Shown piece after piece: positions 4,171-33,017 of a DNA stretch of 60,674 nt. This DNA comes from a virus, in the IMG/VR virus record IMGVR_UViG_3300003792_000001; one strand, 5' to 3'. Positions within the stretch are counted from its first letter, which is position 1. The number at the start of each line of letters is the position of its first letter. The notes beneath the pieces were generated by a model, which was not told the origin of the DNA, made no database searches, and saw only the letters and a list, made by a program, of their open reading frames with translations. The position numbers were made by a program, and so were the translations under genes.

Positions 4171-4569
4171 ATGAAACAGAAACAGAACAAAGCCGGGCGA
4201 CCGGCGCACGCGCCCGATGCCAAAGACCGGCAGATGGTCGAGGTGCTTGCGGGCTTTGCGGTGCCGACCGCGAAAATCGCGGCGGTCCTGAACATCACTC
4301 AGGCGACGCTATTCAAGCACTATCGCCTGGAAATCCAACGGGGCGGCGCGCTCGTCGAAGCCAAGCTCGTCGGAAACCTCTTGCGGCTCGCGGGCGGCAA
4401 GGATGGCACGGCCCTGAAAGCGATCACCTTTGCGCTGCAATGCCGCTTCGGCTGGTCGCAATATGTGCCGCGCCCTGATCCTGAGCGCCCGCTCGGCAAG
4501 AAAGAGGTGCAACAGATCGCCGCCGAAACCGGCCATGAAAACACCGAGTGGGGCCACTTGCTCCAGTGA
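4171..4569 (+). CDS. terS: Terminase small subunit (HTH)
   Basis: Small basic HTH protein (TAKIAAVLNITQATLFKHYR) immediately upstream of, and overlapping, the large terminase. Confidence 0.7.
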   Translation: MKQKQNKAGRPAHAPDAKDRQMVEVLAGFAVPTAKIAAVLNITQATLFKHYRLEIQRGGALVEAKLVGNLLRLAGGKDGTALKAITFALQCRFGWSQYVPRPDPERPLGKKEVQQIAAETGHENTEWGHLLQ

Positions 4570-6239: not shown

Positions 6240-6267
6240 TCCCCGCGCCTTACAGGACACCCAAGCC

Positions 6268-15996: not shown

Positions 15997-18900
15997 GTGG
16001 CAACCGACCTTGAGCGCCTCGTCGTGCAGCTTAGCGCCGACGTGAAATCCTATGAGCGCGGGCTACAGCGTGCGCGCGGCGTGACGAACCGCGAAATGGG
16101 CGCAATCGAAAAGCGCGCCAAGAGCATGAACCGCAACATCAGCGATATCGGCAAGGGCTTCGGGCGCGGCTTGGTCGCGCCTCTTGCCGGTGTCGCTGCC
16201 GCCTTGAGCGTGGCCGAGGTGATCAAATACGCCGACGCCTGGAAGCGCGCCGGAAACGCCCTCAAGGTATCCGGCGTCCCGGCGGGCCAACTTGCGGGCA
16301 CGCTTGACCGGCTATTCGACATCGCGCAAGGCGCGGGCGCCGATCTCGGTTCTACCGTCACCCTCTTTTCCCGCCTTTCCCAATCCGCCAACGAGCTGGG
16401 CGCCAATCAGGAACAGCTTTTCCAGTTCACCAAAGGCGTCGGCGACGCCTTGAAGGTAGCGGGGACCGACGCCGCGTCGGCCAGCGGCGCCTTGCTGCAA
16501 TTGAGCCAGGCGCTCGGCGGCAGCATCGTCCGGGCGGAAGAATTCAATTCGATCAACGAGGGCGCCCGGCCCATCCTGCAAGCCGTCGCCGATGGCCTCG
16601 ACGAGGCGGGCGGGTCGGTCGCAAAATTGCGCGAGATCGTGCTTGAGGGCGGCCTGACCTCGAAAGCCTTTTTCGAGGCGTTCCTGAAAGGATCGAAGGG
16701 GCTGGCAAAGCAGGCCGAACAGGCATCGACGACGTTCGGGCAGGCTTTCCAAAAGATCGAAAACGCCTTCACGAAATACATCGGCTCGACCGACGAAAGC
16801 CTCGGCGCATCGGCGCGGCTGATCGCCGGGCTTGAAGCGCTCGCCGATAATTTCGACGCGACCGCCGACGTCGCCATCGCTTTCGCCAGCATCCTTGCGG
16901 CGGGCCTGCTTGGCCGCGCGATTGGCGGGATGATTGCGCGGATCGGGCTGGGGATCGGCGCCCTCAATAATCTCGTCAAGGCATTCCGTGGCGTGCAGGT
17001 CGCGGCGGGTGCCAGCAGCGGCGCACTCGCAAGCCTTGGCGCTGCCGCCGGGCCGCTTGGCGCCATCGCGGGCCTTGGCGCCCTCGCGGTGACAACGGCC
17101 CTGATCGGCTTCCAGCAGGAGGCGGACGAGGCCGCCGCCAAAGCCGAAAAGATCAACGCCGAGCTGGAAAAGATGGGGCTCCTTGCCCCGAAGGCGGCGG
17201 ATGGTGTCGACGAGGCCGCCAAGTCCGTGGAGGAACTTTCCAAGGGTGCCAAGGCGCGCCAACTGAAAGATTTCAACGATGAGTTGGAACGCCTGCGCGG
17301 CGGTGGCACCGGCGGGAGCCTCGGCGACGAATTGGGCTCCATCGCCGAAAAGGCGCGGGCCGGGATGCGCGGCCTTGTCGGAATGTTTTCCACGTCGGAC
17401 ATCGATAGGGCGGCGCGCGAGTCCATCGCCGGTCTCGCCGATGGTTTCCGCGACGGCAATGTGGCGGCAGAGGCGGCGCTTGCCACGCTGCAAGAAATGG
17501 AAGCAACGGAAATCAGCACGCCGGTCCTTGAACTGAATAAGCAGCTACAGGAGACCATTAAGCGCTACCGCGCCGTGCAAACCGCCGCCGCCGGGCTGGG
17601 CGACACCAAAGAACTGGACCGCTACGCCGCCGCCGTGAAAAAGGCGCGCGACGAGGTGGTGGCGCTGTTCGATCACGCCCTCCGCTCCATCGACCGAAAC
17701 ACCATCTCGCCCGCAGCATTGAAGGAGCTTGAAGACCTGCGCGATGGTCTGGCCGAGGGCACGACCGGCGCCGACGAGGCCAAGGCCGCGCTGCAAAGGC
17801 TGGCGCGCGAAAACTATGGGTTCCAGGCCATCGCCGACGCATTCCAGCCGGTGCTCGATGTGTTCGGCCTTGCCATCAAAGCGCTGGATGAATTCAAGAC
17901 GAAGGCGGCAGGATTTACCATGCCGGGCACGAACGGCCCGCCCGGCTTTATGCGCGAGGGCGCGCAGGAGGAAATCCGCAGGCGCGACGTATCCACCTAT
18001 CTGCAAGAGCGCGAAGCACTGGAATTGCGCACGGCCCACGAAAAGGAACTCGCCGAGCTAACTGAAAAGATCATGAAAGACGCCAAGGAGGCGGGCAAGG
18101 CGATCACCGAGGCCGAGGCGGCGGCATCGGCGCGCAAGCGTTTGGAAAATCGCGAGACGGCGGAAGCGCGGCAAGGCTCGGTATCGAGCGCCGCGTCGAT
18201 GATCAAGCAATATGAAGGGTTCCGCTCGACGCCCTATTGGGACAAGAACGCTTATCGGGTCGGCTTTGGCTCGGATACCGTCACGCTGTCGGACAATTCG
18301 GTTCAAAAGGTGACGAAGGGCATCTCGATTTCGGTGGCCGATGCGAACCGCGACCTCAATCGCCGCATTGAGGAATTTCAGAACGGCATCAAGGGCGACA
18401 TCGGCGCCGAACGCTTCGCGGGCTTCAACGAGGATCAGCAAGGCGTCCTGACCAGCATCGCCTACAATTACGGCTCGCTGCCTGATCGCATCATAAAGGC
18501 AATCAAGGAAGGCACGACCGAGGATATTTACAACGCCATTCGCGGCCTTGGCAGCGACAACGGCGGGATCAATCGCAAGCGCCGCAACAAAGAGGCCGAA
18601 GAATTCCTGTCCGGGGCGCCGGAAGGAATCCGCGAGGACATCACCCTTCGCCGCGAGCAAAACCAGCTGATCAAGGATAAGGTCGCCGCCCTCGCCGAGG
18701 AAACGGCGGGCATCGCCGCTGATACATCGATGATGAGCGCCTCCAATGCGGAGCGCGAACGCGAGCGGGTCATTCGCGAAACCCTCAATGAACTGCAAAA
18801 GGAAGGCATCACGATCACCGACGAGGTGCGCGCTGCTGTCGAGGCCGAGGCCGCCGCCCGCTACGGCGCCGTGGCCGCCTATGATGCCGCCGAAAAGGCC

Positions 18901-19533
18901 GCCGACCGGCTCAAGCAAAGCCAAGAGGATTTGGCCGCCGTCCAGCAGGATATTTCCGGTGCATTCCAAGGCGCAATGAAGGGGTTCATCTCCGATCTCG
19001 TCCACGGAAAGACGGCGACCGAAGCGCTCTATAATGCCGTATCCCAGCTTGCCGACCGCTTGCTCGACATCGCCCTTGATCAGATTTTCAAATCGCTGTT
19101 TTCGCCAAGCACCGGCGCGACCGGCGGCGGCGGCTTCTTCGGCGCGCTGTTCGGCGGCCTTTTCGATAAGGGCGGCTATACCGGCGCGGGCGGCAAGTAC
19201 GAGCCCAAGGGCGTCGTCCATGGCGGCGAATATGTATTCTCCAAGGCGGCCACGAACCGCATCGGCGTCGGCAATCTTGATGCGATGCACAGGGCGGCGA
19301 AACGCGGCGGCTTTGCCGAGGGCGGCTATACCCTGCCGCGAATTCGCGGCGCCGGGGCACAGGTACAAGCTCAGGCCGCCCCGCCGAACGTGGACGCCAG
19401 GACGACGGTCATCAATCGCTTTGACGCCGCGTCGTTCCTTTCCGAAGCGATGGCCCAGCCAGCGGGCGCAAAGACGATCCTCAACGTGATCAAATCACAG
19501 CCCGCCGCGTTCCGGGCGGCGATGCAGGGGTAA
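15997..19533 (+). CDS. Tape measure protein with an internal lysozyme (GH24-like) domain
   Basis: 1178 aa, Ala/Gly-rich and helical. The internal segment IKQYEGFRSTPYWDKNAYRVGFGSDT...SIAYNYGS resembles the phage lysozyme catalytic region. Confidence 0.9.
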   Translation: MATDLERLVVQLSADVKSYERGLQRARGVTNREMGAIEKRAKSMNRNISDIGKGFGRGLVAPLAGVAAALSVAEVIKYADAWKRAGNALKVSGVPAGQLAGTLDRLFDIAQGAGADLGSTVTLFSRLSQSANELGANQEQLFQFTKGVGDALKVAGTDAASASGALLQLSQALGGSIVRAEEFNSINEGARPILQAVADGLDEAGGSVAKLREIVLEGGLTSKAFFEAFLKGSKGLAKQAEQASTTFGQAFQKIENAFTKYIGSTDESLGASARLIAGLEALADNFDATADVAIAFASILAAGLLGRAIGGMIARIGLGIGALNNLVKAFRGVQVAAGASSGALASLGAAAGPLGAIAGLGALAVTTALIGFQQEADEAAAKAEKINAELEKMGLLAPKAADGVDEAAKSVEELSKGAKARQLKDFNDELERLRGGGTGGSLGDELGSIAEKARAGMRGLVGMFSTSDIDRAARESIAGLADGFRDGNVAAEAALATLQEMEATEISTPVLELNKQLQETIKRYRAVQTAAAGLGDTKELDRYAAAVKKARDEVVALFDHALRSIDRNTISPAALKELEDLRDGLAEGTTGADEAKAALQRLARENYGFQAIADAFQPVLDVFGLAIKALDEFKTKAAGFTMPGTNGPPGFMREGAQEEIRRRDVSTYLQEREALELRTAHEKELAELTEKIMKDAKEAGKAITEAEAAASARKRLENRETAEARQGSVSSAASMIKQYEGFRSTPYWDKNAYRVGFGSDTVTLSDNSVQKVTKGISISVADANRDLNRRIEEFQNGIKGDIGAERFAGFNEDQQGVLTSIAYNYGSLPDRIIKAIKEGTTEDIYNAIRGLGSDNGGINRKRRNKEAEEFLSGAPEGIREDITLRREQNQLIKDKVAALAEETAGIAADTSMMSASNAERERERVIRETLNELQKEGITITDEVRAAVEAEAAARYGAVAAYDAAEKAADRLKQSQEDLAAVQQDISGAFQGAMKGFISDLVHGKTATEALYNAVSQLADRLLDIALDQIFKSLFSPSTGATGGGGFFGALFGGLFDKGGYTGAGGKYEPKGVVHGGEYVFSKAATNRIGVGNLDAMHRAAKRGGFAEGGYTLPRIRGAGAQVQAQAAPPNVDARTTVINRFDAASFLSEAMAQPAGAKTILNVIKSQPAAFRAAMQG

Positions 19534-25000: not shown

Positions 25001-25238
25001 TGGTCAGACCACCCGGATCGAAGTGCTCGATTTGGCCGAAACCGTCCTGACCACCCACGATGATCTGACAGGCACCAGCTTTGATGTGCCCGCCGCGTCG
25101 TTCCTTGGCGAGACGGCTGGATACATTCGGGTCAGCTCAAAGCGCGACGGGCTGATTTCCCTGCAAGCGCATCAAATTGAGGTCGTGCTTTCGACCGGCT
25201 ACGGCTACGGCTACGGCCTGAATTATGGAGGGGCATAA
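21975..25238 (+). CDS. Tail hub/host specificity protein (lambda J / GTA gp15-like), main part
   Basis: GGKNDKPKQEVTLYYMSEHFGICHGP and NPAHIIYDALTNTDWGMASPSTAIDVASFE parallel conserved J/gp15 segments. 1087 aa. Confidence 0.85.
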   Translation: MKGIAPVGGKNDKPKQEVTLYYMSEHFGICHGPLDYISKIIINEKTAWEGERSIQSNISINKPELFGGVKKEGGAVGVVHYLPGGATQTIPEEIAAKHGRTTATMPAYRGISTAFFHDGQGQEGFYWSANSPYLPGVWIKASRASTRLGEDYARIYRDGSTREKRTVANFTAESDVNAWRLYDVYGSTLAHYSADLEQLIIEDLRAGTVHAAITLSDPPMWVYISPSQSEVLVLGPTGVLDSYTLTGAAKASVSLGIDPTQPGDSLGQLDGPPTEIVVGGTTYMFFMVYTAVVCCKNSGGGWSFEWIDSGGPQYGGVVAASPTHLVVRNPFGHCTYVAWTPGIAPVGGLGAYYTIDFETLLGWNVGFTHAINSVTYVPATDRWFFTVATGPLATLNSDCTAVVASGTTDAAFGTSERQPVKSRRILMEGDSVAAFINDRAVYLFDIATCEQIQKIPLSEWDLGDTIVEDDAGYSPEERAFFLVTGNFNDGYVVMLPNGDFDSNPAHIIYDALTNTDWGMASPSTAIDVASFEAAAAVLYDEAFGLSFIWTKQSTIESFISEVLDHIEAVLFVNPMNGLLTLKLIRDDYEVDDLPVFTPDNSVVTKFGRKLWGETINEIVVTWTNPKNEEEQTVIAQDNANIEAQGGIVSDGRNYYGVRVRGLAMKLAQRDLRAASTPLASGDMEVNRDAWNLLPGDVIVLNSPEDGIDSIVMRVGPVDYGKPGDPTVKVQLVEDIFSLPLADYDIPPDTEWQPVSEEPSPADDTLAFTLPYYLVANEVDPTVLALGVEYPEVFAGVLAAESGQDTAEFELYDSAADDLGTKTIVSRAELAAGIDAEVETDLPTFPDRTQGNAPTVGGFILIEGTDETDVELCEITASDDTGYTVKRGALDTIPRAWPSGTPVWFIDGNLENTDDTVRSEAEVVGYKVLTRTSLGLLEFAAAPTISLTLTARPYLPLRPADVKVNGDDGFAGIVDCDGVDPIPVTWANRNRLTEDSVILAWDAADVTPEDGQTTRIEVLDLAETVLTTHDDLTGTSFDVPAASFLGETAGYIRVSSKRDGLISLQAHQIEVVLSTGYGYGYGLNYGGA

Positions 25239-25987
25239 TGCCTTCAAGGACACTTCCCGGCCTTGGCCTTACCGGCTTTTGGGATTTGGGGTTCGATGGT
25301 TGGAAAGACCCGATGGACGTCAATTTGCGGCTCCTGTCCGCGCTCGTCCAGCCGCGCGCGATCAGCCGCACCACGGCTTTGCCGGGTTCGCCTACCGATG
25401 GCGATATTTATATTGTCCCGGATGGCGCGGGCAGCAATCCCAACGAGATCGCGATCCGCGACAATGGCGCTTGGGTCTATGTCGTCCCCGCCGAGGGCTT
25501 TACCGCCTATGTCGAGGACGATGCCGAAAACGTCCAGTTCGACGGCACGGATTGGGTGGGGCTTGCCGCCGGGATCGCCGATGCGCCCAGCGACGGCACG
25601 ATCTACGGTCGGAAAGACGGCGCGTGGGAAGCGGTCCCCGATGGCGTGACAAAGATAGAACTTTCGTTCTTTGCGGGCGGCACGTTCGACGCGACGGAAT
25701 TGCTGTTCCGGCATGTGGCCACGCAAGCGTTCACCTTCCCGGCGGGGCTCACGGACTCGCGCGGATCGTCGGCGCTGGCGGCGACCGGCAGCGCCGCCCT
25801 ATCGATCAAAAAGAATGGTTCCGAGGTCGGCACGGCCACATGGTCGGCGGCGGGCACCACGGCGACGATGGCGATGGCCTCGCCGACGAGCTTTGCCGCT
25901 GGCGACGTTCTGTCCGTCACCGGCCCCGCCACGCCGGACGCCACGCTCGGCGACGTCTCTGTTTCACTGATTGGGGAACTGGCATGA
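25238..25987 (+). CDS. DUF2793-type tail fibre protein
   Basis: ALPGSPTDGDIYIVPDGA...IAIRDNGAWVYVVPAEGFTAYVEDD...FDGTDW is the DUF2793 pattern seen in alphaproteobacterial GTA/phage fibres. Confidence 0.7.
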   Translation: MPSRTLPGLGLTGFWDLGFDGWKDPMDVNLRLLSALVQPRAISRTTALPGSPTDGDIYIVPDGAGSNPNEIAIRDNGAWVYVVPAEGFTAYVEDDAENVQFDGTDWVGLAAGIADAPSDGTIYGRKDGAWEAVPDGVTKIELSFFAGGTFDATELLFRHVATQAFTFPAGLTDSRGSSALAATGSAALSIKKNGSEVGTATWSAAGTTATMAMASPTSFAAGDVLSVTGPATPDATLGDVSVSLIGELA

Positions 25988-27006
25988 GCATCCTTTTCGC
26001 GACATCATCCATCGCCGATTTCGACACAATCGTTGGCTGCGTCGCACAGACGTCGTCGACCTATTTCGATAACACGTATGCCACGGAAGCCATTGAGGTC
26101 AACGAGTCGGGCTCATCCAACCTCGCGGTAAAGACGCTGCCGTCGGCGGATACTGATCTCTGGCTAGCGGCCCGCTATTTTTGGTCCTCAGCCCTTGCCT
26201 CATTGAATGGTTCGTGGATCGCCTTTTACGATACCGCCTTCGGCGCGACAGCAATCGCGCGGATTCGCTCCACATTCTCCAGCCCGAACTACATTCACAA
26301 CTTGGAAATCTACAACGGCGCGACCTATGACACCGTGCTGACGTTTAACAATTTAATCGTCGCTGAAAATACCCGACGCCACCTCGCGGTGCATTTGAAG
26401 CTCCACGACACCACCGGCAAATTCGAGGTCTATTTCGACAAGGCGCTGATAGCGTCCTTTACCGGCGATACGATCCGGGCGGGATATACGCAGGTCAACA
26501 AATTCCATCTCGGCAATCCGGCTGGATCAGTCGGCGGTAGCGAGATGGAATGGAGCGAGGTCATCGTTGCGGGCGGTGGCGAGGTTCCCATCGATTATCG
26601 CCTCAAGACCCACACGCCGAACGCCAACGGTGCCAACACCGCATGGACCGGCGACTATACGGCAATCGACGAGACCGGCATCAATGACGCCGACCTGATC
26701 ACCACCGCCGTCGCCAACGACAAGGAAACATACGGCTGCACCGACCTTGTATCCGGCACAACGGATCGCGCGTGCCGGGCTGTGGTGGTCGCCAGCAGGT
26801 GCAAGCTCGGAGCGACCGGGCCGCAAAATCTCAAAAACGCGGTACGGGTCGGCGGCACCGACTACCTGTCCAGCAACGTGGCCGGGCTGACCTCCGCGCA
26901 ATTCGTGCCGACGCAGACGATATGGGAAACGAGCCCCGCAACGAGCGCCAAATGGACAGCAGCGGAAATCAACGCCATGGAAATCGGCGTTCAAGCCATC
27001 GCCTAA
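25984..27006 (+). CDS. Putative receptor-binding/fibre-associated protein, paralog 1
   Basis: ATGA-coupled start at 25984. Shares blocks with 27020..28066 (H..LH.KLH..TG..E.Y.D..L.A.F.G.T; ...GTDY.SS.V...W.T.PAT...W). The 25225-25983 part of the tracked ORF is rejected. Confidence 0.65.
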   Translation: MSILFATSSIADFDTIVGCVAQTSSTYFDNTYATEAIEVNESGSSNLAVKTLPSADTDLWLAARYFWSSALASLNGSWIAFYDTAFGATAIARIRSTFSSPNYIHNLEIYNGATYDTVLTFNNLIVAENTRRHLAVHLKLHDTTGKFEVYFDKALIASFTGDTIRAGYTQVNKFHLGNPAGSVGGSEMEWSEVIVAGGGEVPIDYRLKTHTPNANGANTAWTGDYTAIDETGINDADLITTAVANDKETYGCTDLVSGTTDRACRAVVVASRCKLGATGPQNLKNAVRVGGTDYLSSNVAGLTSAQFVPTQTIWETSPATSAKWTAAEINAMEIGVQAIA

Positions 27007-27019
27007 GAGGGAGTGAATC

Positions 27020-28066
27020 GTGACGATCTATTTTGCAGGTTCCGCGCCGTGCGATTTCAAAAGCATGGGTTTGGCCTTCTCGACGATAGCCGCCGAAATC
27101 GATACCAACTTCGTCCAGGCCGGAGTATCGGTCGACTCTGCGAGTGAAGCGTTCGCTGATCTGAGCACGAGCGGCGTGACCGATGCGTGGTTTCATATCA
27201 GGACGTTCATCAACGCGCTCAATACAGAAAAGTCATTCATCAGAGTGATGACGCTCGCGCAAAGGATGACATCGACAGCCCTAGTGCGGATTCGTTGTTC
27301 GACAGCCGCCAGCGGCTCGTCCAGCTTGTCCGGCACGGCGGCGCTGCAACTTGAATTTCTCGACGCCACCGGGGCGGCCTATACGGCGGTGGATTCCCCG
27401 TTCAACGTGGTGATCGATGTGGTCCACACATTCGATCTGCATGTGAAACTCCACGGATCGACCGGCGTGATCGAGCTTTATATGGACGGCGTGCTCGTCG
27501 CGGATTTCAGCGGCAATACCGCGCCCAGCGCGGCGGCGGCTGATGGGATGTCCATTCTCGCATTGAGGCAAAGTTTTTCTCTCGGCACTGGAAGCCAAAC
27601 CTACACTATCGGCTATTCCGAGGTGATCGTCGCCAACGAAAATACCTTGGATTGGCGGCTGGCCGAATTGATCCCCACCGGCGCGGGCGCAAACAGCGGA
27701 TGGGCTGGGGCTTATACCGATGTCGACGACGTGACCCTGCCGAGCACCGGCGATCTCGACATGATCACCGCCGCCGCCAACGATCTGAAATCGACCTATG
27801 TCATGGGCGACATCAGCGGATCAATCAGCGGAATGGCCATCGTCGCCGTGGGAGTCGTCGCCCGCGCGCGCAAAGGCACGACCGGGCCGCAGCATATGCG
27901 CGGCGTGGTGCGGATTTCCGGCACCGACTATGAAACATCCGACGTCAGCCCGGACATCGCGCTCGCGCCGACGCGGATGATATGGGACACCAATCCGGCC
28001 ACGTCCGGGGCCTGGTCAATCAGCGCCGTCAACGGTGCCGAGTTTGGCATGAAAGCGACGGCGTAA
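27020..28066 (+). CDS. Putative receptor-binding/fibre-associated protein, paralog 2
   Basis: GTG start with SD AAGAGGGAG upstream. Paralogous to the upstream gene. Confidence 0.65.
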   Translation: MTIYFAGSAPCDFKSMGLAFSTIAAEIDTNFVQAGVSVDSASEAFADLSTSGVTDAWFHIRTFINALNTEKSFIRVMTLAQRMTSTALVRIRCSTAASGSSSLSGTAALQLEFLDATGAAYTAVDSPFNVVIDVVHTFDLHVKLHGSTGVIELYMDGVLVADFSGNTAPSAAAADGMSILALRQSFSLGTGSQTYTIGYSEVIVANENTLDWRLAELIPTGAGANSGWAGAYTDVDDVTLPSTGDLDMITAAANDLKSTYVMGDISGSISGMAIVAVGVVARARKGTTGPQHMRGVVRISGTDYETSDVSPDIALAPTRMIWDTNPATSGAWSISAVNGAEFGMKATA

Positions 28067-28343: not shown

Positions 28344-29210
28344 ATGGTGGCCAGCAGCTTTAAGGCGGCACTCGCTCGCGTGCTCGTCCATGAGGGCGGG
28401 TATGTCAATCACCCGCGCGATCCCGGCGGCGCGACCAATCAGGGGATTACGCAACGAACCTATGACGCCTATCGGCGCGGCAAGAAACTGCGCACCCGGA
28501 ATGTCCGCTCATTGGTGCCGCCGGAGCGCGACGATATCTACCGCCACCAATATTGGGACGCGATCCGGGGCGACAAGCTGCCGGAGGGGCTTGATTACGT
28601 GTTGTTCGACGGCTGCGTCCATTCCGGCCCGAAGCAATCGATCAAGTGGTTACAGCGCGCGCTCGGCGCGGCCTATCGCGGCGAGATTGACGGGGTGATC
28701 GGCCTTGGCACCTTGGCCGCCATCGATGAGACCGAAAATCTTGACGCGCTGATCGACCGGATTTGCGACCGGCGCATGATCTATCTCCGCGCGCTGGATA
28801 CTTGGCGGGATTTTGGGCGCGGCTGGACCGCGCGCGTCGCTGGCGTCCGGTCGGTCGGCCAGGCGATGGCCGATAACAAGAAGGATGCCGAGGAGGTCGT
28901 CGTTTTTGCGGCGGCGGGTTCCGGGGAAAAGGCGCTTATCGAGGATGCGCGCAAATCGCCGTCCAAGGCACCCGCCGACGCGGCCACCGGCGGCGGCATC
29001 GGCGCGGGCGGTATCTCGGCGACGCTACAGGGCTTGCAGGATCAGCTCACGCCCTACAGTTCGGCGGGCGCGTGGATCGGCAATCTCGTCGTCGGGCTCG
29101 CGGTGCTAGGCGCGGCGCTCGCAATCGGCGGCATCGGCTACCGCTGGTATGCTAATCGCCAGCAAAAGCGAATCGCCGACGCGCTCGATGTGGCGGCGGC
29201 GCCGGTATGA
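28344..29210 (+). CDS. Endolysin: GH108 domain, PG_binding_3 domain and a C-terminal TM helix
   Basis: VLVHEGGYVNHPRDPGGATNQGITQRTY (GH108), RRMIYLRALDTWRDFGRGWTARV (PG_binding_3), and the C-terminal hydrophobic stretch WIGNLVVGLAVLGAALAIGGIGY. Confidence 0.85.
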   Translation: MVASSFKAALARVLVHEGGYVNHPRDPGGATNQGITQRTYDAYRRGKKLRTRNVRSLVPPERDDIYRHQYWDAIRGDKLPEGLDYVLFDGCVHSGPKQSIKWLQRALGAAYRGEIDGVIGLGTLAAIDETENLDALIDRICDRRMIYLRALDTWRDFGRGWTARVAGVRSVGQAMADNKKDAEEVVVFAAAGSGEKALIEDARKSPSKAPADAATGGGIGAGGISATLQGLQDQLTPYSSAGAWIGNLVVGLAVLGAALAIGGIGYRWYANRQQKRIADALDVAAAPV

Positions 29211-29491
29211 TCGCCTTCCTTACCGGGCCGCTCGGCAAGGCGCTGGCGGTGGCGCTGATCGCCGTCGCGCTATTCGGCGGCGGCTATTGGAAGGGCCGGG
29301 CGGATAGCCGGGCCGATCAACTCAAGGACACCATAGCCGCGATTGAAAAGCGGGAGAAAATCGATGATCGGGTCAAAGGCTTGGATGGCGTTGCTCTTTG
29401 CAACGAGCTTCTTGGCGGCGGGGTGCACGACGAATGCACTCAATTGCGCGGGGTGGAAGAAGATCGCCGTGGAGCCGGGCGCGGCCATTAA
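29207..29491 (+). CDS. i-spanin-like protein (Rz-like)
   Basis: N-terminal TM helix followed by a charged helical region. ATGA-coupled to the endolysin. Contains an overlapping lipoprotein ORF. Confidence 0.6.
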   Translation: MIAFLTGPLGKALAVALIAVALFGGGYWKGRADSRADQLKDTIAAIEKREKIDDRVKGLDGVALCNELLGGGVHDECTQLRGVEEDRRGAGRGH

Positions 29492-29579
29492 GCTCGCCAG
29501 CGACCCGGTGTTGATCCCCATCGGCCAAGGCGTAGCTGGGCACAATGCATTCGGGCGGGCACGGAAATGCTGGAAATGA
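29343..29579 (+). CDS. o-spanin-like lipoprotein (Rz1-like), overlapping the i-spanin gene in another frame
   Basis: Lipobox FLAAGC follows the hydrophobic signal WMALLFATS. The true start is probably an internal Met (29364 or later). Confidence 0.6.
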   Translation: MKSGRKSMIGSKAWMALLFATSFLAAGCTTNALNCAGWKKIAVEPGAAIKLASDPVLIPIGQGVAGHNAFGRARKCWK

Positions 29580-30040
29580 TGCGCGCAATCCTCTCCCATC
29601 TATGGTTCGGCTTTGCGCAAGCGGCGGGCGTGATCCTGATCGCCGGGGTAATCTCGTTCGGTGTCCTGCATATGTTTTCGGTCGATGGGCCGGTGGTCGA
29701 GGTAATCGAGGGGCCGAGCAATATATCCACATCGGTGCCTTATGGCGGCGTCCTGACCTATCGGATATCGACGAGGCGCAATGCATCCTGTCCCGGCACG
29801 GTGATCGCCAGCTTTTCCTTTCAGGGCGGCGGCCCGCCGGTGACGGTTTTGCTCAGCCGCCCAATCATGTCGACCGAAATCAAGCAAACCGACGATGCCA
29901 CGGTTTATTTCCAATTGCCCGAAAGCGTCTATCCGGGCCGGTGGCTCTATCGGTCGGTGGTCGATAGCGTGTGCCCGACGCGATCCCAGCAAGACGTGAC
30001 GGCGCAATTCCCATTTGAGGTGACCCGTCATGTGGACTGA
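29567..30040 (+). CDS. Membrane-anchored protein of unknown function
   Basis: One N-terminal TM helix (FAQAAGVILIAGVISFGVL) followed by a Cys-containing, beta-rich domain. Confidence 0.55.
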   Translation: MLEMMRAILSHLWFGFAQAAGVILIAGVISFGVLHMFSVDGPVVEVIEGPSNISTSVPYGGVLTYRISTRRNASCPGTVIASFSFQGGGPPVTVLLSRPIMSTEIKQTDDATVYFQLPESVYPGRWLYRSVVDSVCPTRSQQDVTAQFPFEVTRHVD

Positions 30041-30410
30041 TATCCTGAATTTCTTTGGCGCCGAGCGCTATTCGCAACATTCGATCTGCCTGACCAATGA
30101 TCCGGTCATGATCTTCCTTTATGTGCTGTCCGATCTTTCGACGTTCGCCTCCTATTTCGCCATCGGCCTCGCCCTAATTCTCGTCGGGCAAGTGCCGCCG
30201 CAAAGGGTAAGGCCGACGATGCGACTGCTATTCGGCGCTTTCATTTTCCTATGCGGCCTGTCGCACCTGACATCGGTCGTCACGCTATTCGCAGGCGTCT
30301 ATCGGCTGGACATTCTTGTGCGCGCCGCCATGGCCGCCGTCTCGGTCGTGACCGCAATCGCGGTCATTGCCGATTACATAGCCGGGCGCCGGGAGCGGAG
30401 GGCTTCGTGA
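30030..30410 (+). CDS. Stand-alone ethylene-binding-domain (ETR1 N-terminal)-like membrane protein
   Basis: Three TM segments carry LSDLSTFASYFAIGLAL, FGAFIFLCGLSHL and AAMAAVSVVTAIAV. These parallel ETR1 ISDFFIAIAYFSIPLEL, FGAFIVLCGATHL and AKVLTAVVSCATAL, including the Cu-ligand Cys/His positions. Confidence 0.55.
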   Translation: MWTDILNFFGAERYSQHSICLTNDPVMIFLYVLSDLSTFASYFAIGLALILVGQVPPQRVRPTMRLLFGAFIFLCGLSHLTSVVTLFAGVYRLDILVRAAMAAVSVVTAIAVIADYIAGRRERRAS

Positions 30411-30411
30411 T

Positions 30412-30603
30412 ATGGACGTGGAGGCTTATGTGACCGTACTCGCCACGGTCGCCGTGGCCATTGGGTGCGGCATGGTCACATATAGAATATCGATTCGGCA
30501 GGCGAAGAAGGAAATCGCCGAGGCTTTCGAAGCGCATATCCAGCAGATGCATGTCGACCATAAGGAATTCGTCCAGGCGGTGAAATCGGAAAGCAAGGAA
30601 TGA
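30412..30603 (+). CDS. Small single-TM protein (holin-like candidate)
   Basis: 63 aa. TM VTVLATVAVAIGCGMV followed by a charged C-terminus. Confidence 0.5.
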   Translation: MDVEAYVTVLATVAVAIGCGMVTYRISIRQAKKEIAEAFEAHIQQMHVDHKEFVQAVKSESKE

Positions 30604-30606
30604 ATT

Positions 30607-30933
30607 GTGGACCTCGCGCCCTTGCTCACCTTTGGCGGGGCCGTCTTGACGGCGATCTTCACCGTTATCGGCACCATCTATGTCGCCCGGTCAAAGACGC
30701 GCGCCGACATTGGCGCATCGATTACGACGGGTTTCCGCGAGCTGACCGATCAGCTCCAAGAGGAGCGCAATCAGCTAAGCGAGATCATCAAACGGCAGCG
30801 CGACGAACTGAAAGAGGCCGAAAGGGATAAGATGAAGCAAGAGGCGCTCATCCGCCGGATGCGCCGCCAGATTTCGCTGTTGGAGGAAAAGCTGGCAAAG
30901 GCCGGTATCCACATCCCACCGATGAATTTCTAG
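30607..30933 (+). CDS. Single-TM coiled-coil protein
   Basis: GTG start. TM LLTFGGAVLTAIFTVIGTIYV followed by a coiled coil (LQEERNQLSEIIKRQRDELKEAERDKMKQEALIRRMRRQISLLEEKL). Confidence 0.55.
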   Translation: MDLAPLLTFGGAVLTAIFTVIGTIYVARSKTRADIGASITTGFRELTDQLQEERNQLSEIIKRQRDELKEAERDKMKQEALIRRMRRQISLLEEKLAKAGIHIPPMNF

Positions 30934-30974
30934 CCCCGCGCGGGCTCTTTTCTCCTGTTCGCCCGCGCATACTC

Positions 30975-31010
30975 GCCCCGCCTTGGCTTCGGCCTCGGCG
31001 GGGCTTTTTT
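30975..31010 (+). terminator. Rho-independent terminator ending the late/lysis operon
   Basis: Stem gccccgcc (30975-30982) pairs with ggcggggc (30997-31004) and is followed by tttttt (31005-31010). Confidence 0.75.
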
Positions 31011-31121: not shown

Positions 31122-31493
31122 TTAATCTTTGATTTTCTTTGACGCCTTCACTTGGGCGCGGCGGATAGCATCCGCCTCGTCGCGGCTCTGTTGTCGCGTC
31201 TTTGCTCTTGCGTCCTCCGATGGCCCCAAATTCTCCACCACCGTCGAGTTTCGCGCCCTTTCCAAAAGCACCTCGATATCTGTTTTTTTAGCGGCCTCAT
31301 CGAGGTCTTGGAAATATCCCTCGATCTCCCAGCGATCCCATATCACCCGACTGCCTACCCGCTTCGGCTTTGGCATTCGGCCCTCAGCCACAAGTTTGTC
31401 GAATGTCGATGCGCTGACGCCGATGTAGCGGGCGGCGGTTTCCCGCGACATGCCGCGCGGAGGGTATGAATATCTATCTTCCTTGTTGGGCAT
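31122..31493 (-). CDS. xis: Excisionase/AlpA-family HTH protein
   Basis: MSRETAARYIGVSASTFDKLVAEGRMPKPKRVGSRVIWDRWEI is the HTH_17/AlpA pattern. Adjacent to attP and the integrase. An alternative TTG start lies at 31508. Confidence 0.7.
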   Translation of the reverse strand: MPNKEDRYSYPPRGMSRETAARYIGVSASTFDKLVAEGRMPKPKRVGSRVIWDRWEIEGYFQDLDEAAKKTDIEVLLERARNSTVVENLGPSEDARAKTRQQSRDEADAIRRAQVKASKKIKD

Positions 31494-31506
31494 ACGACTT
31501 TCGCGC

Positions 31507-31541
31507 AAAAATTAAATGGCGATTAAATAGCTGATTTTCAG
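31507..31541. repeat. attP arm-type repeat, left copy (aaaaattaaatggcgattaaatagctgattttcag)
   Basis: Direct repeat of 31727..31757. Contains an internal tandem ATTAAATrG. Confidence 0.8.
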
Positions 31542-31579
31542 TGAGGAGGAAGAATTCCGAATTCATCAAGGAAATCAAA

Positions 31580-31628
31580 TGGCTGGGGAAAGTGGATTCG
31601 AACCACTACTAACGGAGTCAGAGTCCGT
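31580..31628 (-). other. 3' portion of a tRNA-Gln(CUG) gene, the candidate attP core
   Basis: The minus strand reads acgga-ctCTGac-tccgt-tagt-agtgg-ttcgaat-ccact-ttcccca-g-cca (anticodon arm, T arm, 3' acceptor strand, CCA). The sequence where the 5' acceptor strand should be cannot pair with it. Confidence 0.65.
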
Positions 31629-31726
31629 CTCAAGCCAATTCGTTGAAATTCTTTCACATTGATACGCATTGATTTGATTGAGTTATTCTTGCGTTTGCCT
31701 TCGTTCGAATTCGTTCAACTCTTGCA

Positions 31727-31757
31727 TAAAAATTAAATGGTGATTAAATGGATTTCA
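31727..31757. repeat. attP arm-type repeat, right copy (aaaaattaaatggtgattaaatggatttcag)
   Basis: Near-identical direct repeat of 31507..31541, on the other side of the tRNA-like core. Confidence 0.8.
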
Positions 31758-31802
31758 GCGGAGTTGACTCCGTTGGCCTTGATTTCCAGGAGGGGAACCC
31801 AC

Positions 31803-33017
31803 ATGCCGCGACTGACAGAACCCCGCGTATTGCGCGAAACGCTCCCGCCCAAGGGAAAATTGAAGTGGCTGCGTTGCTCTGAGGTTAAGGGTTTTTGCGC
31901 TTGCATCACCCCGAACGGTGCCCGCACATGGTATGTGCTGGTGCGCGAAAAAACTGGCAAGCAAAAGCCATACAGCCTCGGCCCGGTCGGCGTCTTGCCA
32001 TTCGAGGGCCCGCCGGAAGAACCCGGCGCGCGGGACTTGGCCTTGGCGGCGCTGAACGCCGCCCGGCGCGGCGATGACGTGGCGCTGGCGATCAACCTCA
32101 AAAAGGAGCCCGCCGGGCTCACCCTCAATGAAATCTGGAAGGCGCACAAAGAGGCTGGCTTTCCCAAGGTTCGCGGCACAGGCCGCAAGGGGCCCCGCAC
32201 GATCAAAGCCGACTCGGATCGATGGGCTTTGTATGTGGAGAAGGAATTCGGCAAGAAGCCGGTCTCCGAAATCGATAACGCGGCGGTCCTTCGCTGGCTT
32301 GATAAGATCGCCAAGAAGGGTCAGCGGGCGCAATGCCTGACGCTGGTCAAATCGATGCTTTCCTTTGCGGCAAAGCGCGGGCTGGCGACCGTCCACGAAA
32401 TTTCCGAAAAGCCATCCAAGCCGAATAAGATCAACAATTATTATACCGACGCGCAGCTTGCGGCCATCGATCTTACCGCAACGGAGATGGGCGCCGAGAG
32501 CGAGGATCGGCTTCCATATTTCGCCGCTGTCCGGCTTTTGCTTCACACCGGCGCGCGCTCGGAGGAAATTCGCGCCGCCCGCTGGTCTCAGATCAGGGGC
32601 AACGTGCTGATCCGTGATCACCACAAAGGCGGCGAGGATACGAAGGAAATCCTGCTCACCGACGAGGCTGTGGAAATCATCAAGGGATTGCCCCGCCTGC
32701 GCGGGTGCCCTTGGCTGTTCCCCGCCGAGTCCAAGGCCGGGCACATCATGAATATCGAGTCGGCTTGGGATGATGTGTGCAAGCGGGCAGGGGTGCCGCG
32801 CTACCGTCCGCATGATTTGCGGCATTCCTTCGCGTCGGCTTTCATCAGGGCAGGGGGATCGCTGGCGGCTTTGCAAAAGCTGATGGGCCACGCTGATATC
32901 CAGACGACGATGCGCTACGTGCATGTGGAGCAAGAAACCCAACGCCTCCATTTGAACCGGATGGCCGAGGCAAGGCGCGCGGCGCTAAAGCCAGCGGGAT
33001 CGGAAAAGGCCGCGTGA
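31803..33017 (+). CDS. int: Tyrosine integrase
   Basis: C-terminal HDLRHSFASAFIRAGGSLAALQKLMGHADIQTTMRYVHV (R..H.R..Y catalytic pattern). SD AGGAGG lies upstream of ATG 31803. Confidence 0.9.
   Translation: MPRLTEPRVLRETLPPKGKLKWLRCSEVKGFCACITPNGARTWYVLVREKTGKQKPYSLGPVGVLPFEGPPEEPGARDLALAALNAARRGDDVALAINLKKEPAGLTLNEIWKAHKEAGFPKVRGTGRKGPRTIKADSDRWALYVEKEFGKKPVSEIDNAAVLRWLDKIAKKGQRAQCLTLVKSMLSFAAKRGLATVHEISEKPSKPNKINNYYTDAQLAAIDLTATEMGAESEDRLPYFAAVRLLLHTGARSEEIRAARWSQIRGNVLIRDHHKGGEDTKEILLTDEAVEIIKGLPRLRGCPWLFPAESKAGHIMNIESAWDDVCKRAGVPRYRPHDLRHSFASAFIRAGGSLAALQKLMGHADIQTTMRYVHVEQETQRLHLNRMAEARRAALKPAGSEKAA

What the first reader, a model, noticed from the sequence alone, without database searches (positions are those of the whole stretch)
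30030..30410. Stand-alone ethylene-binding-domain-like membrane protein in a phage lysis region
The 126-aa protein aligns by eye with the three-helix ethylene-binding domain of plant ETR1.
- LSDLSTFASYFAIGLAL against ISDFFIAIAYFSIPLEL. This conserves the Asp25 and Tyr32 positions.
- FGAFIFLCGLSHL against FGAFIVLCGATHL. This conserves the Cu(I)-ligand Cys65 and His69 positions.
- AAMAAVSVVTAIAV against AKVLTAVVSCATAL.
In plants and bacteria this domain is the N-terminal sensor of kinases or other signalling proteins. Here it has no output domain at all. It sits among small membrane proteins directly after the endolysin and spanin genes, overlapping its upstream neighbour by 11 nt. It could be a holin or antiholin whose gating responds to a small hydrophobic ligand or to copper. 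It could also be a decoy that binds or titrates the host receptor's ligand or metal. I am not aware of a described phage-encoded domain of this kind.
Basis: partly seen in the sequence, partly recalled or inferred. Interest (0 to 1): 0.75.

Follow-up and report, generated by a model that had tools for sequence, protein, structure and literature searches.

The report
Phage stand-alone ethylene-receptor-like membrane protein
A temperate phage of rhizobia carries, inside its cell-lysis gene cluster, a 126-residue membrane protein that is a genuine relative of the copper-containing ethylene-sensing domain of plant hormone receptors but has no signalling part. The same pairing with cell-wall-degrading enzymes recurs in unrelated phages, which points to an undescribed lysis-associated protein whose function is untested.

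Summary
ORF 30030-30410 (+) encodes a 126-aa, three-helix membrane protein. It matches Pfam ETR1_N (PF25487) at E=5.5e-19, 68.7 bits against a cut-off of 27. It keeps the Cu(I) ligands Cys75 and His79 (ETR1 C65 and H69), four of the five other ethylene-binding positions (Pro36 is Gly), and an invariant N-terminal Cys. dN/dS is about 0.1.

It has no output domain. Its cellular relatives are ETR1_N-PAS-histidine kinases.

It is the centre of a conserved module: a 155-aa protein with a periplasmic beta-sandwich, ETR1_N, and one or two proteins with a membrane helix and a coiled coil. In this window the module is packed against the endolysin and spanin genes, and terminator-like hairpins follow it.

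The module, or a lone ETR1_N gene, lies beside peptidoglycan hydrolases of six families in sipho- and myo-type phages and prophages of Rhizobiales and Bacteroidota. One is the virulent Maribacter phage Colly_1, where the gene sits in the holin position.

No PHROG, holin family, defence model or paper describes it.

A lysis-control role (holin, pinholin or regulator) is the best-supported reading, but it is inferred. Ethylene or copper gating is possible and untested. A sub-clade that lost the Cys/His pair but kept the module argues the metal site is not essential. I rate this a new variant of a known domain, of high-moderate interest.

The parts
28344..29210 (+). Endolysin: GH108 + PG_binding_3 with a C-terminal transmembrane helix (residues about 248-266)
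   Evidence: Pfam Glyco_hydro_108 E=2.1e-27 and PG_binding_3 E=4.4e-07. phrog_315 endolysin E=3.3e-51. Hydropathy shows the transmembrane helix.
29207..29491 (+). Putative i-spanin (N-terminal transmembrane helix plus a charged helical region). Its start overlaps the endolysin stop by 4 nt.
   Evidence: phrog_12535 E=3.5e-12 and phrog_8821 'Rz-like spanin' E=1.5e-4. Coordinates.
29343..29579 (+). Putative o-spanin: a lipoprotein-like ORF (…FLAAGC…) that starts inside the i-spanin gene in another frame and runs past it (overlapped architecture)
   Evidence: Translation. Weak phrog_37499 match, E=2.4e-4. The lipobox was read by eye.
29567..30040 (+). P155, the module partner: an N-terminal transmembrane helix plus a periplasmic eight-strand beta-sandwich with two invariant Cys (SCPG…CPT)
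   Evidence: AF2 pLDDT 84.7. Foldseek finds only generic Ig/FnIII-like folds. Alignment A2. A P155 hit (complete or fragmentary) lies directly upstream of ETR1_N in all but one of the close loci (L085 lacks it; L003/L011 keep only a 50-aa fragment).
30030..30410 (+). Stand-alone ETR1_N (ethylene-binding-domain) protein, 126 aa. Helices are at 25-51, 62-88 and 91-125. Key residues: H17, C20, D35, Y42, C75, H79.
   Evidence: Pfam PF25487 E=5.5e-19. AF2 pLDDT 87. Conservation. dN/dS about 0.1.
30412..30603 (+). S63: a 63-aa protein with one transmembrane helix and a charged helical tail. It starts 1 nt after the ETR1_N stop codon.
   Evidence: Translation. Conserved in synteny and weakly related to CC108.
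30607..30933 (+). CC108: a 108-aa protein with an N-terminal transmembrane helix and a coiled coil
   Evidence: phrog_2658 E=9e-12. Downstream of ETR1_N in every close locus.
30932..31005 (+). Two terminator-like hairpins (30932-30946 and 30985-31005, each followed by a T-run) immediately after the module. This is the probable end of the late operon.
   Evidence: No such site lies between 28344 and 30932.
31122..33017 (.). Context: an HTH_17 excisionase-like gene (31122-31508, -) and a tyrosine integrase (31737-33017, +). The module lies next to the integration region.
   Evidence: Pfam HTH_17 E=9.4e-05 and Phage_integrase E=7.9e-23.

Best explanation
The ORF encodes a real, selected, stand-alone homologue of the ethylene-binding domain. 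It is a three-helix inner-membrane protein, predicted N-terminus-out and C-terminus-in. It keeps the Cu(I)-binding Cys/His pair and the N-terminal Cys.

It is made late in infection, from the same tightly packed transcription unit as the endolysin and spanins. It is made together with three conserved partners: P155 (a periplasmic beta-sandwich on a membrane anchor) and S63 and CC108 (each a membrane anchor with a helical or coiled-coil tail predicted to be cytoplasmic).

I propose that this membrane complex acts in lysis control. The EBD protein would be either the membrane-permeabilising element (a class-I-like holin or pinholin that frees the membrane-tethered GH108 endolysin) or a regulator of when permeabilisation happens. 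Its metal site would give it the potential to respond to copper, redox state, ethylene or another small ligand.

Shown: homology, conservation, purifying selection, operon structure, module synteny, and recurrent adjacency to endolysins.

Inferred: topology, complex formation, late expression, any role in lysis, and any metal or ligand binding.
For: - Homology: Pfam ETR1_N E=5.5e-19. A family HMM aligns all three helices to ETR1.
- Conservation: C20, C75 and H79 are invariant in 51 diverse members.
- Selection: dN/dS is about 0.1.
- Model: AF2 gives a three-helix model with pLDDT 87.
- Operon: gene overlaps or gaps of 1-13 nt run from the endolysin to CC108. Terminator-like hairpins occur only after CC108.
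- Synteny: P155-ETR1_N-(S63)-CC108 is found in all close loci from Rhizobium, Sinorhizobium, Mesorhizobium, Methylorubrum, Bosea and IMG/VR contigs.
- Endolysin adjacency: the module or a lone ETR1_N gene lies beside peptidoglycan hydrolases of six families: GH108, CHAP, M15_4, GH19, Phage_lysozyme2 and Amidase_3. This holds in sipho-, Mu-like and P2-like contexts and in a GC-38% Bacteroidota-type phage contig.
- Virulent phage: in Maribacter phage Colly_1, gp063 (ETR1_N, E=3e-16) lies directly upstream of the amidase endolysin and is preceded by a transmembrane + coiled-coil protein. The authors list no holin for that phage (PMC8776804).
- No competitor in this window: no other small multi-helix membrane protein exists in the late region.
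- Possible pore function: a preprint reports that dimeric ETR1 and ERS1 conduct Ca2+ and that ethylene enhances this (10.1101/2025.10.20.683334). An EBD acting as a permeability element is therefore not far-fetched.
Against: - There is no similarity to any holin family in Pfam, PHROGs or NCBIfam. Fold search gives no significant holin match.
- Some related loci carry other holin candidates: a two-helix 109-aa ORF in L006 and a weak GTA_holin_3TM hit in L095. The EBD protein is therefore probably not the sole holin everywhere.
- Endolysins with a C-terminal transmembrane helix can act without a holin (M4Lys, PMC7143992 abstract). This phage need not encode one.
- A sub-clade lacks His79, and sometimes Cys75, His17 or Cys20, yet keeps the module. 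Metal or ligand binding is therefore not essential to the module's core job.
- Pro36 is Gly, and the Asp25 equivalent varies (N, H or E in about 15%).
- In this phage and its close relatives the module lies at the prophage end, next to att/int. That is also a typical place for lysogenic-conversion genes.
- There are no expression or phenotype data.
Confidence: 0.5

Rival explanations
1. Lysogenic-conversion or superinfection-exclusion module. The four membrane proteins are expressed from the prophage and change the envelope, for example by blocking DNA entry of other phages or by altering copper handling. They would have no role in lysis.
For: - In the window, L001, L008 and L097 the module is the last block before the attachment/integrase region, a classic location for accessory genes.
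- The module moves between unrelated phage types as a unit.
- L006 has a full set of lysis-like genes (endolysin, two-helix protein, spanin pair) in addition to the module.
- L098 keeps only S63 + CC108 next to a truncated integrase.
Against: - No promoter-like site was found, and no terminator separates the module from the spanins. Start and stop codons overlap, so it looks like the tail of the late operon.
- In L087 and L095 the module lies between tail genes and the endolysin, not at a prophage end.
- The virulent Maribacter phage has the ETR1_N gene in the holin position.
- There is no PADLOC match.
Confidence: 0.2
2. Ligand-independent structural holin. The EBD fold was recruited simply as a three-helix hole-forming protein. 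The Cys/His pair is retained for folding or oligomerisation, not for sensing.
For: - It has class-I-like architecture: three helices, predicted N-out/C-in, and a short basic tail (GRRERRAS).
- It sits in lysis-cassette positions across phages.
- The sub-clade without Cys/His keeps the module.
Against: - C75, H79 and C20 are invariant and H17 is near-invariant across 51 diverse members, with dN/dS about 0.1. That is much stronger conservation than a mere pore former needs.
- H17 and H79 are lost together, which suggests one functional site.
- Holins rarely need three conserved partner proteins.
Confidence: 0.15
3. Decoy or dominant-negative. The output-less EBD binds the host's ethylene or copper, or forms dead heterodimers with a host EBD histidine kinase, and so blinds the bacterium to plant ethylene.
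For: - The nearest cellular relatives are alphaproteobacterial ETR1_N-PAS-HWE kinases.
- A nodule Rhizobium replicon encodes a 35%-identical EBD protein.
- Hosts of the close family are plant-associated Rhizobiales.
- Bacterial EBD receptors bind ethylene and control root colonisation (PMC11819568).
Against: - Late-operon placement means the cell is about to die when the protein is made.
- The idea does not explain the three conserved partner proteins, the linkage to endolysins, or the homologues in marine Bacteroidota phages.
- No host receptor was identified in the actual host.
Confidence: 0.08

Closest known systems
Ethylene-binding domain of plant ETR1/ERS1 and of bacterial receptors (SynEtr1 of Synechocystis, AzoEtr1 of Azospirillum); Pfam PF25487 ETR1_N
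   Same: - It is a three-helix membrane domain.
- The Cu(I) ligands Cys and His sit one helical turn apart in helix 2.
- The Asp and Tyr of helix 1 are present.
- There is an N-terminal Cys.
- The profile match is well above the curated cut-off.
   Different: - It has no GAF, PAS, kinase or other output domain. The protein ends after helix 3.
- It is encoded by a phage inside a lysis cassette.
- It travels with three dedicated partner genes.
- Pro36 is Gly.
- It has a family-specific G-x-Y-R-L-D motif at the start of helix 3.
- Its Pfam score (69 bits) is lower than that of cellular EBDs (94-127 bits).
- Ethylene and copper binding are untested.
Class I holins (lambda S105) and pinholins (phage 21 S68)
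   Same: - It is a small inner-membrane protein.
- It has three helices with predicted N-out/C-in topology, as S105 does.
- It has a short basic C-terminal tail.
- It is encoded in the lysis cassette and co-transcribed with the endolysin and spanins.
- The endolysin here is membrane-tethered, a situation in which a depolarising pinholin suffices. (Holin properties are stated from established knowledge.)
   Different: - No sequence or significant fold similarity was found.
- There is no dual-start motif.
- Conservation of polar and metal-binding residues is unusually strong.
- It lies downstream of the spanins rather than upstream of the endolysin in this phage.
- Hole formation has not been shown.
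Lysis-timing regulators (T4 antiholins RI and RIII; lambda S107)
   Same: They are accessory membrane or periplasmic proteins in lysis cassettes that tune holin triggering in response to a signal. The module has periplasmic (P155), membrane (EBD) and cytoplasmic (S63/CC108) parts, as a sensor complex would.
   Different: There is no homology, no identified target holin in this window, and no known signal.
Endolysins with a C-terminal transmembrane domain (M4Lys of phage BSPM4, LysAP of phage AP1, the Enc34 endolysin)
   Same: The neighbouring GH108 endolysin has the same overall layout: an enzymatic N-terminus and a C-terminal membrane helix (abstracts).
   Different: This is the neighbour, not the finding itself. 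It matters because such enzymes may lyse without a classical holin, which weakens the argument that the EBD protein must be the holin.

Membership tests
Ethylene-binding domain (Pfam PF25487 ETR1_N) | Profile match above the curated gathering score | tested here: met
   68.7 bits against a cut-off of 27, E=5.5e-19, covering 87 of 97 profile positions.
Ethylene-binding domain (Pfam PF25487 ETR1_N) | Three transmembrane helices | tested here: met
   The AF2 model has helices at 25-51, 62-88 and 91-125, with pLDDT 87. Hydropathy gives three segments. N-out topology is inferred only from charge distribution.
Ethylene-binding domain (Pfam PF25487 ETR1_N) | Cu(I) ligands Cys65 and His69 in helix 2 | tested here: met
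   C75 and H79 align to C65 and H69. Both are invariant in 51 diverse family members. Both are present in 225 of 238 relatives.
Ethylene-binding domain (Pfam PF25487 ETR1_N) | Other residues needed for ethylene binding in ETR1: Asp25, Tyr32, Ile35 and Ile62. This list is recalled from Wang et al. 2006. PMC11819568 confirms that there are seven such residues, and PMC11971883 confirms the roles of D25, C65 and H69. | tested here: met
   D35, Y42, I45 and I72 align to these positions. In the stand-alone family the D position is D in 120 of 150 members, otherwise N, H or E.
Ethylene-binding domain (Pfam PF25487 ETR1_N) | Pro36 of helix 1 (one of the seven residues, recalled from Wang et al. 2006) | tested here: not met
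   The position is Gly46 in this protein and G, A or S in most of the rhizobial-phage family. Pro is kept in cellular EBDs and in the L089-L092 viral group.
Ethylene-binding domain (Pfam PF25487 ETR1_N) | N-terminal Cys that disulfide-links the dimer (ETR1 Cys4/Cys6) | tested here: inconclusive
   C20 is invariant and lies in a general bacterial motif, (P)H-G-x-C-L. Its equivalence to ETR1 Cys6 was judged by eye only, because the HMM alignment does not reach the ETR1 N-terminus.
Ethylene receptor (a complete signalling protein) | Cytoplasmic output module (GAF/PAS + histidine kinase, GGDEF, MCP and so on) fused after helix 3 | tested here: not met
   The protein has 126 aa and a stop codon about 13 residues after helix 3. 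Cellular relatives carry PAS + HWE_HK/HisKA_2.
Ethylene receptor (a complete signalling protein) | Saturable Cu-dependent ethylene binding | not testable with these tools
   This needs a 14C-ethylene binding assay on expressed protein, as was done for AzoEtr1[1-130] (PMC11819568).
Holin | Small membrane protein with at least one transmembrane helix and a charged C-terminus, encoded in the lysis cassette | tested here: met
   It has three helices and the tail …GRRERRAS, and it lies 820 nt downstream of the endolysin in the same gene string. Homologues are adjacent to six endolysin families.
Holin | Homology to a described holin family | tested here: not met
   There is no holin hit in Pfam, NCBIfam or PHROGs. 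BFVD holin matches have E of 2 or more.
Holin | It is the only candidate able to permeabilise the membrane in its phage | tested here: inconclusive
   No other multi-helix small protein exists in the late region of this window. However, L006 and L095 have extra candidates, and the endolysin has its own membrane helix.
Holin | Lethal, timed hole formation on expression, triggered by energy poisons | not testable with these tools
   This needs an experiment.
Anti-phage defence systems (PADLOC) | Match to a known defence protein model | tested here: not met
   There were no hits for P155 or ETR1_N, one weak match for S63 (tm_HEPN, E=0.0073, 14 bits), and several weak matches to the coiled-coil part of CC108 (E 8e-5 to 0.02) that I take to be coiled-coil noise.

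The most novel reading that the evidence does not exclude
Phages have turned the ethylene-binding domain into a ligand-gated lysis switch. In this reading, a disulfide-linked, Cu(I)-loaded EBD dimer works with a periplasmic beta-sandwich partner and cytoplasmic coiled-coil partners. It opens, or controls, a membrane permeability pathway that triggers lysis. In rhizobial phages its gating would respond to plant ethylene (or to copper or redox state), coupling phage release to the state of the plant host.
Probability: 0.15. Interest if true: 0.9.

Novelty: new variant of a known kind. Interest (0 to 1): 0.68.

Why it matters
1. It would be the first phage-borne, output-less ethylene-binding domain to be noticed. 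It is tied to the lysis cassette in several unrelated phage lineages. That suggests either a new holin or lysis-regulator family, or an input into lysis timing that nobody has looked for.

2. The hosts of the closest family are plant-associated rhizobia, where ethylene strongly affects symbiosis. A phage element able to sense ethylene or copper would link plant signalling to phage ecology.

3. No experimental structure of any ethylene-binding domain is in the PDB, by either sequence or fold search. A natural, strongly conserved 126-residue minimal domain from a bacterial system is an attractive target for structure determination, for testing the reported ion permeability of ETR1, and for ethylene biosensors.

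4. The joint loss of the N-terminal His and the helix-2 His hints that the N-terminal H-x-x-C motif belongs to the metal site of bacterial EBDs.

Tried and rejected
- tblastn of the 126-aa protein, of P155 and of CC108 against 50,697 GenBank phage genomes found nothing. Megablast of 20 kb of the window also found nothing. Only the more distant L092 variant found the Maribacter phages. The L088 variant found nothing.
- The PDB sequence search and the PDB fold search found no solved EBD. The best fold matches are generic three-helix subunits (NuoK/ND4L) at E above 0.4.
- The BFVD fold search gave one borderline hit of 289 aa (A0A8E4UZR7). It is probably Maribacter phage gp063, which has the same length, but I could not confirm the identity.
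- I tested whether P155 is a copper chaperone. Its model is a generic Ig/FnIII-like sandwich with no conserved His or Met, only two Cys that probably form a disulfide. The idea is not supported.
- PHROG scans of candidate holins in related loci returned no annotated holin family.
- PADLOC gave nothing meaningful.
- The search for related loci with the Cys/His-less sub-clade alignment failed because there was no conserved stretch. I used the look-up of encoding contigs instead.
- The names that sources give to CC108 homologues were uninformative.
- I considered that the ORF is a spurious high-GC ORF. I rejected this on dN/dS of about 0.1 and on more than 90 homologue clusters.
Full report
**1. 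The observation**

ORF 30030..30410 (+) is real. It starts with ATG, encodes 126 aa, overlaps the upstream 157-aa ORF by 11 nt, and has a GAGGTG motif 8-13 nt before the start.

Pfam ETR1_N (PF25487, 'Ethylene receptor 1-like, N-terminal domain') matches at E=5.5e-19 and 68.7 bits, against a curated cut-off of 27. The match covers residues 27-113. NCBIfam and PHROGs have no family for it.

BLASTP against the Arabidopsis ETR1 N-terminus gives 38% identity over 64 residues. A profile built from the phage family aligns all three helices to it at 50 bits. The aligned pairs are D25=D35, Y32=Y42, I35=I45, P36=G46, I62=I72, C65=C75 and H69=H79.

The third is shifted by one residue.

AlphaFold2, run with a 51-sequence alignment, gives two short N-terminal helices and three long helices (25-51, 62-88, 91-125) at mean pLDDT 87.

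Seven phage copies give dN/dS of about 0.1, with dS between 0.2 and 2. This is a selected protein-coding gene, not a chance ORF in GC-rich DNA.

**2. The family**

A search of 5.8 billion proteins found 97 clusters. Nearly all are 119-135 aa, stand-alone, and already labelled PF25487. The named ones come from Rhizobium, Mesorhizobium, Bradyrhizobium, Methylobacterium and Methylorubrum.

In 51 diverse members, C20, F71, C75, H79, G89 and S105 are invariant. H17, Y14, D24, P25, Y42, Y91, R92 and D94 are nearly invariant.

An exhaustive profile search of 1.84 billion representatives found 7,739 relatives. The top 45 or so are short stand-alone proteins. Below them the list merges into N-terminal domains of proteins 300-1,300 aa long. 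Those I scanned are ETR1_N + PAS + HWE_HK/HisKA_2 histidine kinases of Alphaproteobacteria, Bacteroidota and others.

The N-terminal H-x-x-C motif (QHSIC here, usually PHGxC) is general among bacterial EBDs.

No solved structure of any EBD is in the PDB, by sequence or by fold.

**3. The surroundings in the window**

The window is a temperate siphovirus-type genome in vegetative gene order:

| Feature | Position |
|---|---|
| Large terminase | 4548 |
| Protease-capsid fusion | 6268 |
| Portal | 8652 |
| Tape measure | 15997 |
| Tail protein | 21975 |
| Lysis genes | from 28344 |
| HTH_17 excisionase-like gene (-) | 31122 |
| Integrase (+) | 31737 |
| RecT (-) | 36347 |

The lysis end reads as follows:

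| Gene | Coordinates | Evidence |
|---|---|---|
| GH108 + PG_binding_3 endolysin with a C-terminal membrane helix | 28344-29210 | |
| Rz-like i-spanin | 29207-29491 | |
| Overlapping lipoprotein ORF (putative o-spanin) | 29343-29579 | |
| P155 | 29567-30040 | |
| EBD protein | 30030-30410 | |
| S63 | 30412-30603 | |
| CC108 | 30607-30933 | |

Neighbouring genes overlap or lie 1-3 nt apart. The two terminator-like hairpins on this strand downstream of the endolysin start sit directly after CC108. No other small multi-helix membrane protein lies in the late region.

**4. A conserved module**

In every close relative for which DNA was recovered, the EBD gene has a CC108 homologue downstream. S63 is either a separate gene or fused to CC108. 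Some loci add an 80-aa protein. In all but one of them (L085) a P155 homologue lies directly upstream; in L003/L011 only a 50-aa C-terminal fragment of it remains.

These loci are L001/L002 (Rhizobium ruizarguesonis), L097 (Sinorhizobium meliloti), L006 (Mesorhizobium), L004 (Methylorubrum extorquens), L003/L011 (Methylobacterium oryzisoli), L010 (Bosea), L012 (Chelatococcus), L008 (a metagenome contig), and L080-L087 (IMG/VR).

P155 is a membrane-anchored eight-strand beta-sandwich with two invariant Cys. Foldseek sees only generic Ig/FnIII-like folds. My idea that it might be a copper chaperone is therefore not supported.

**5. Linkage to lysis**

The module travels with different lysis enzymes and different virion types:

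| Enzyme family | Loci |
|---|---|
| GH108 | window, L001, L097 |
| CHAP | L006 (Mu-like baseplate genes) |
| PG_binding_1 (CHAP only a faint hit) | L004 |
| Peptidase_M15_4 | L008 (Mu-like) |
| GH19 | L086 |
| Phage_lysozyme2 | L087, where the module precedes the enzyme and follows tail genes |

More distant stand-alone EBD proteins occur in other viral contigs. In L088 (GC 38%, probably a Bacteroidota phage) a 171-aa EBD with a C-terminal coiled coil lies between a tail fibre and a GH108 endolysin. In L089-L092 it follows the tail-tip gene, among other membrane proteins.

The L092 variant led to isolated phages: Maribacter phages Colly_1 and Molly.
- Colly_1 gp063 (289 aa) is ETR1_N at E=3e-16.
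- It is preceded by gp062, a membrane helix plus coiled coil.
- It ends 4 nt before gp064, an Amidase_3 endolysin.
- The paper describing these phages lists no integrase and no holin for Molly, and mentions only TMD proteins near the lysin (PMC8776804).

This recurrence is the main argument that the protein works in lysis and is not a lysogeny accessory. It covers six hydrolase families, several gene orders, temperate and virulent phages, and two bacterial phyla.

**6. What argues for caution**

- There is no sequence or significant structural similarity to any holin.
- L006 has a separate two-helix 109-aa ORF plus a spanin pair. L095 has a weak GTA_holin_3TM hit downstream.
- Endolysins with a C-terminal membrane helix can lyse without a holin, as for M4Lys (abstract).
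- In the window and its closest relatives the module is also the last block before att/int, a typical place for accessory genes.
- About a dozen 50%-identity clusters of the stand-alone family have lost His79, and often Cys75, His17 or Cys20. Two of them were traced and still sit in the same module: P0121 in L095 (P155-EBD-S63-CC108) and P0131 in the short contig L096 (P155-EBD). Whatever the module does, it can be done without the metal site. Copper or ethylene would then be a modulator at most.
- Pro36 is replaced by Gly. By my recollection of Wang et al. 2006, Pro36 is one of the seven residues needed for ethylene binding in ETR1.
- The Asp25 equivalent varies in about 15-20% of members. 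D25N lowers the ethylene affinity of ETR1 about 100-fold (PMC11971883).

**7. Mechanism I commit to** (confidence about 0.5 for the lysis role and about 0.15 for ligand gating)

The EBD protein inserts in the inner membrane with its N-terminus in the periplasm. It dimerises, possibly through C20, and probably holds Cu(I) at C75/H79 with D35 and perhaps H17. It associates with P155 on the periplasmic side and with S63/CC108 on the cytoplasmic side.

Late in infection this complex either permeabilises the membrane or sets the time at which that happens. That releases the membrane-tethered GH108 endolysin, after which the spanins finish the job.

A recent preprint reports that ETR1 and ERS1 dimers conduct Ca2+, and that ethylene enhances this for ETR1 (10.1101/2025.10.20.683334). 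This makes a permeability function for a bare EBD plausible.

All steps after 'is a conserved EBD homologue co-transcribed with lysis genes' are inference.

**8. Rivals**

- A superinfection-exclusion or conversion module: about 0.2.
- A purely structural holin with no sensing: about 0.15.
- A decoy or dominant-negative against a host EBD kinase: about 0.08. A nodule Rhizobium does encode a 35%-identical cellular EBD protein.

**9. Novelty**

The domain family is known and Pfam already tags these proteins. What is new:
- the stand-alone form;
- its phage origin;
- its fixed partners;
- its repeated placement beside endolysins.

I found no paper that mentions an ethylene-binding domain together with phage. 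There is no PHROG family, and the isolates annotate the gene as 'hypothetical protein'. I rate it a new variant of a known kind, with interest 0.68.

Noticed in passing
family alignment (window residues H17 and H79); The N-terminal His of the H-x-x-C motif and the helix-2 copper-ligand His are kept together in 224 relatives and lost together in 10. Only 4 are discordant. This hints that the N-terminal motif is part of the metal site of bacterial EBDs. The count is not corrected for phylogeny, and the losses may stem from one clade.
   Followed up: partly
L095 1357-1719 and L096 150-527: Stand-alone EBD homologues lacking the Cys/His copper ligands (for example H79Q, C75A, C20A) still sit in the same module: P155-EBD-S63-CC108 in L095, and P155-EBD in the 539-bp contig L096. 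In L095 the module lies between a tail gene and an endolysin-like gene that has a C-terminal membrane helix.
   Followed up: partly
L100 (Maribacter phage Colly_1, NC_062752.1) 4519-6431: In an isolated virulent flavobacterial myovirus, gp063 (289 aa, annotated hypothetical) is an ETR1_N protein with an extra C-terminal domain of about 165 aa. It lies directly upstream of the Amidase_3 endolysin and follows a membrane helix + coiled-coil protein. It is the obvious holin candidate in a phage for which none was reported.
   Followed up: partly
L088 7905-8420 and L094 7992-8498: In two unrelated viral contigs (GC 38% and GC 70%) the EBD is fused to a short C-terminal coiled coil. This resembles a fusion of the EBD with a CC108-like tail.
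   Followed up: no
window 28344-29210: The GH108 endolysin carries a C-terminal transmembrane helix, as do the endolysin-like genes in L086 and L095. This layout is known from only a few phages (M4Lys, LysAP, Enc34).
   Followed up: partly
window 25225-27006 and 27020-28066: Two adjacent tail-fibre-like ORFs end in similar C-terminal sequences (…W(E/D)T(S/N)PATS…W…). They look like paralogous receptor-binding proteins. The listed start of the first ORF is probably too far upstream.
   Followed up: no
window 6268-8244 and 15997-19533: The major capsid protein is fused to an S78 prohead protease domain. The 1178-aa tape measure protein contains a Phage_lysozyme domain.
   Followed up: no
L098 5952-7327 (Rhizobium mulingense): This is a prophage remnant. 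Only S63 and CC108 survive, next to a truncated integrase, with no EBD or P155 gene.
   Followed up: no
L097 11168-12148 (Sinorhizobium meliloti): The prophage carrying the module is integrated next to a host gene with DUF1775 and LpqE-like (PF04314) domains, which I recall, unchecked, as copper-binding protein families. This is probably coincidence, but worth noting given the copper cofactor of EBDs.
   Followed up: no
L003/L011 9849-10001 (Methylobacterium oryzisoli): Here P155 is reduced to a 50-aa C-terminal fragment and the module abuts a divergently oriented RecT gene. The module sits away from lysis genes, possibly after a rearrangement.
   Followed up: no
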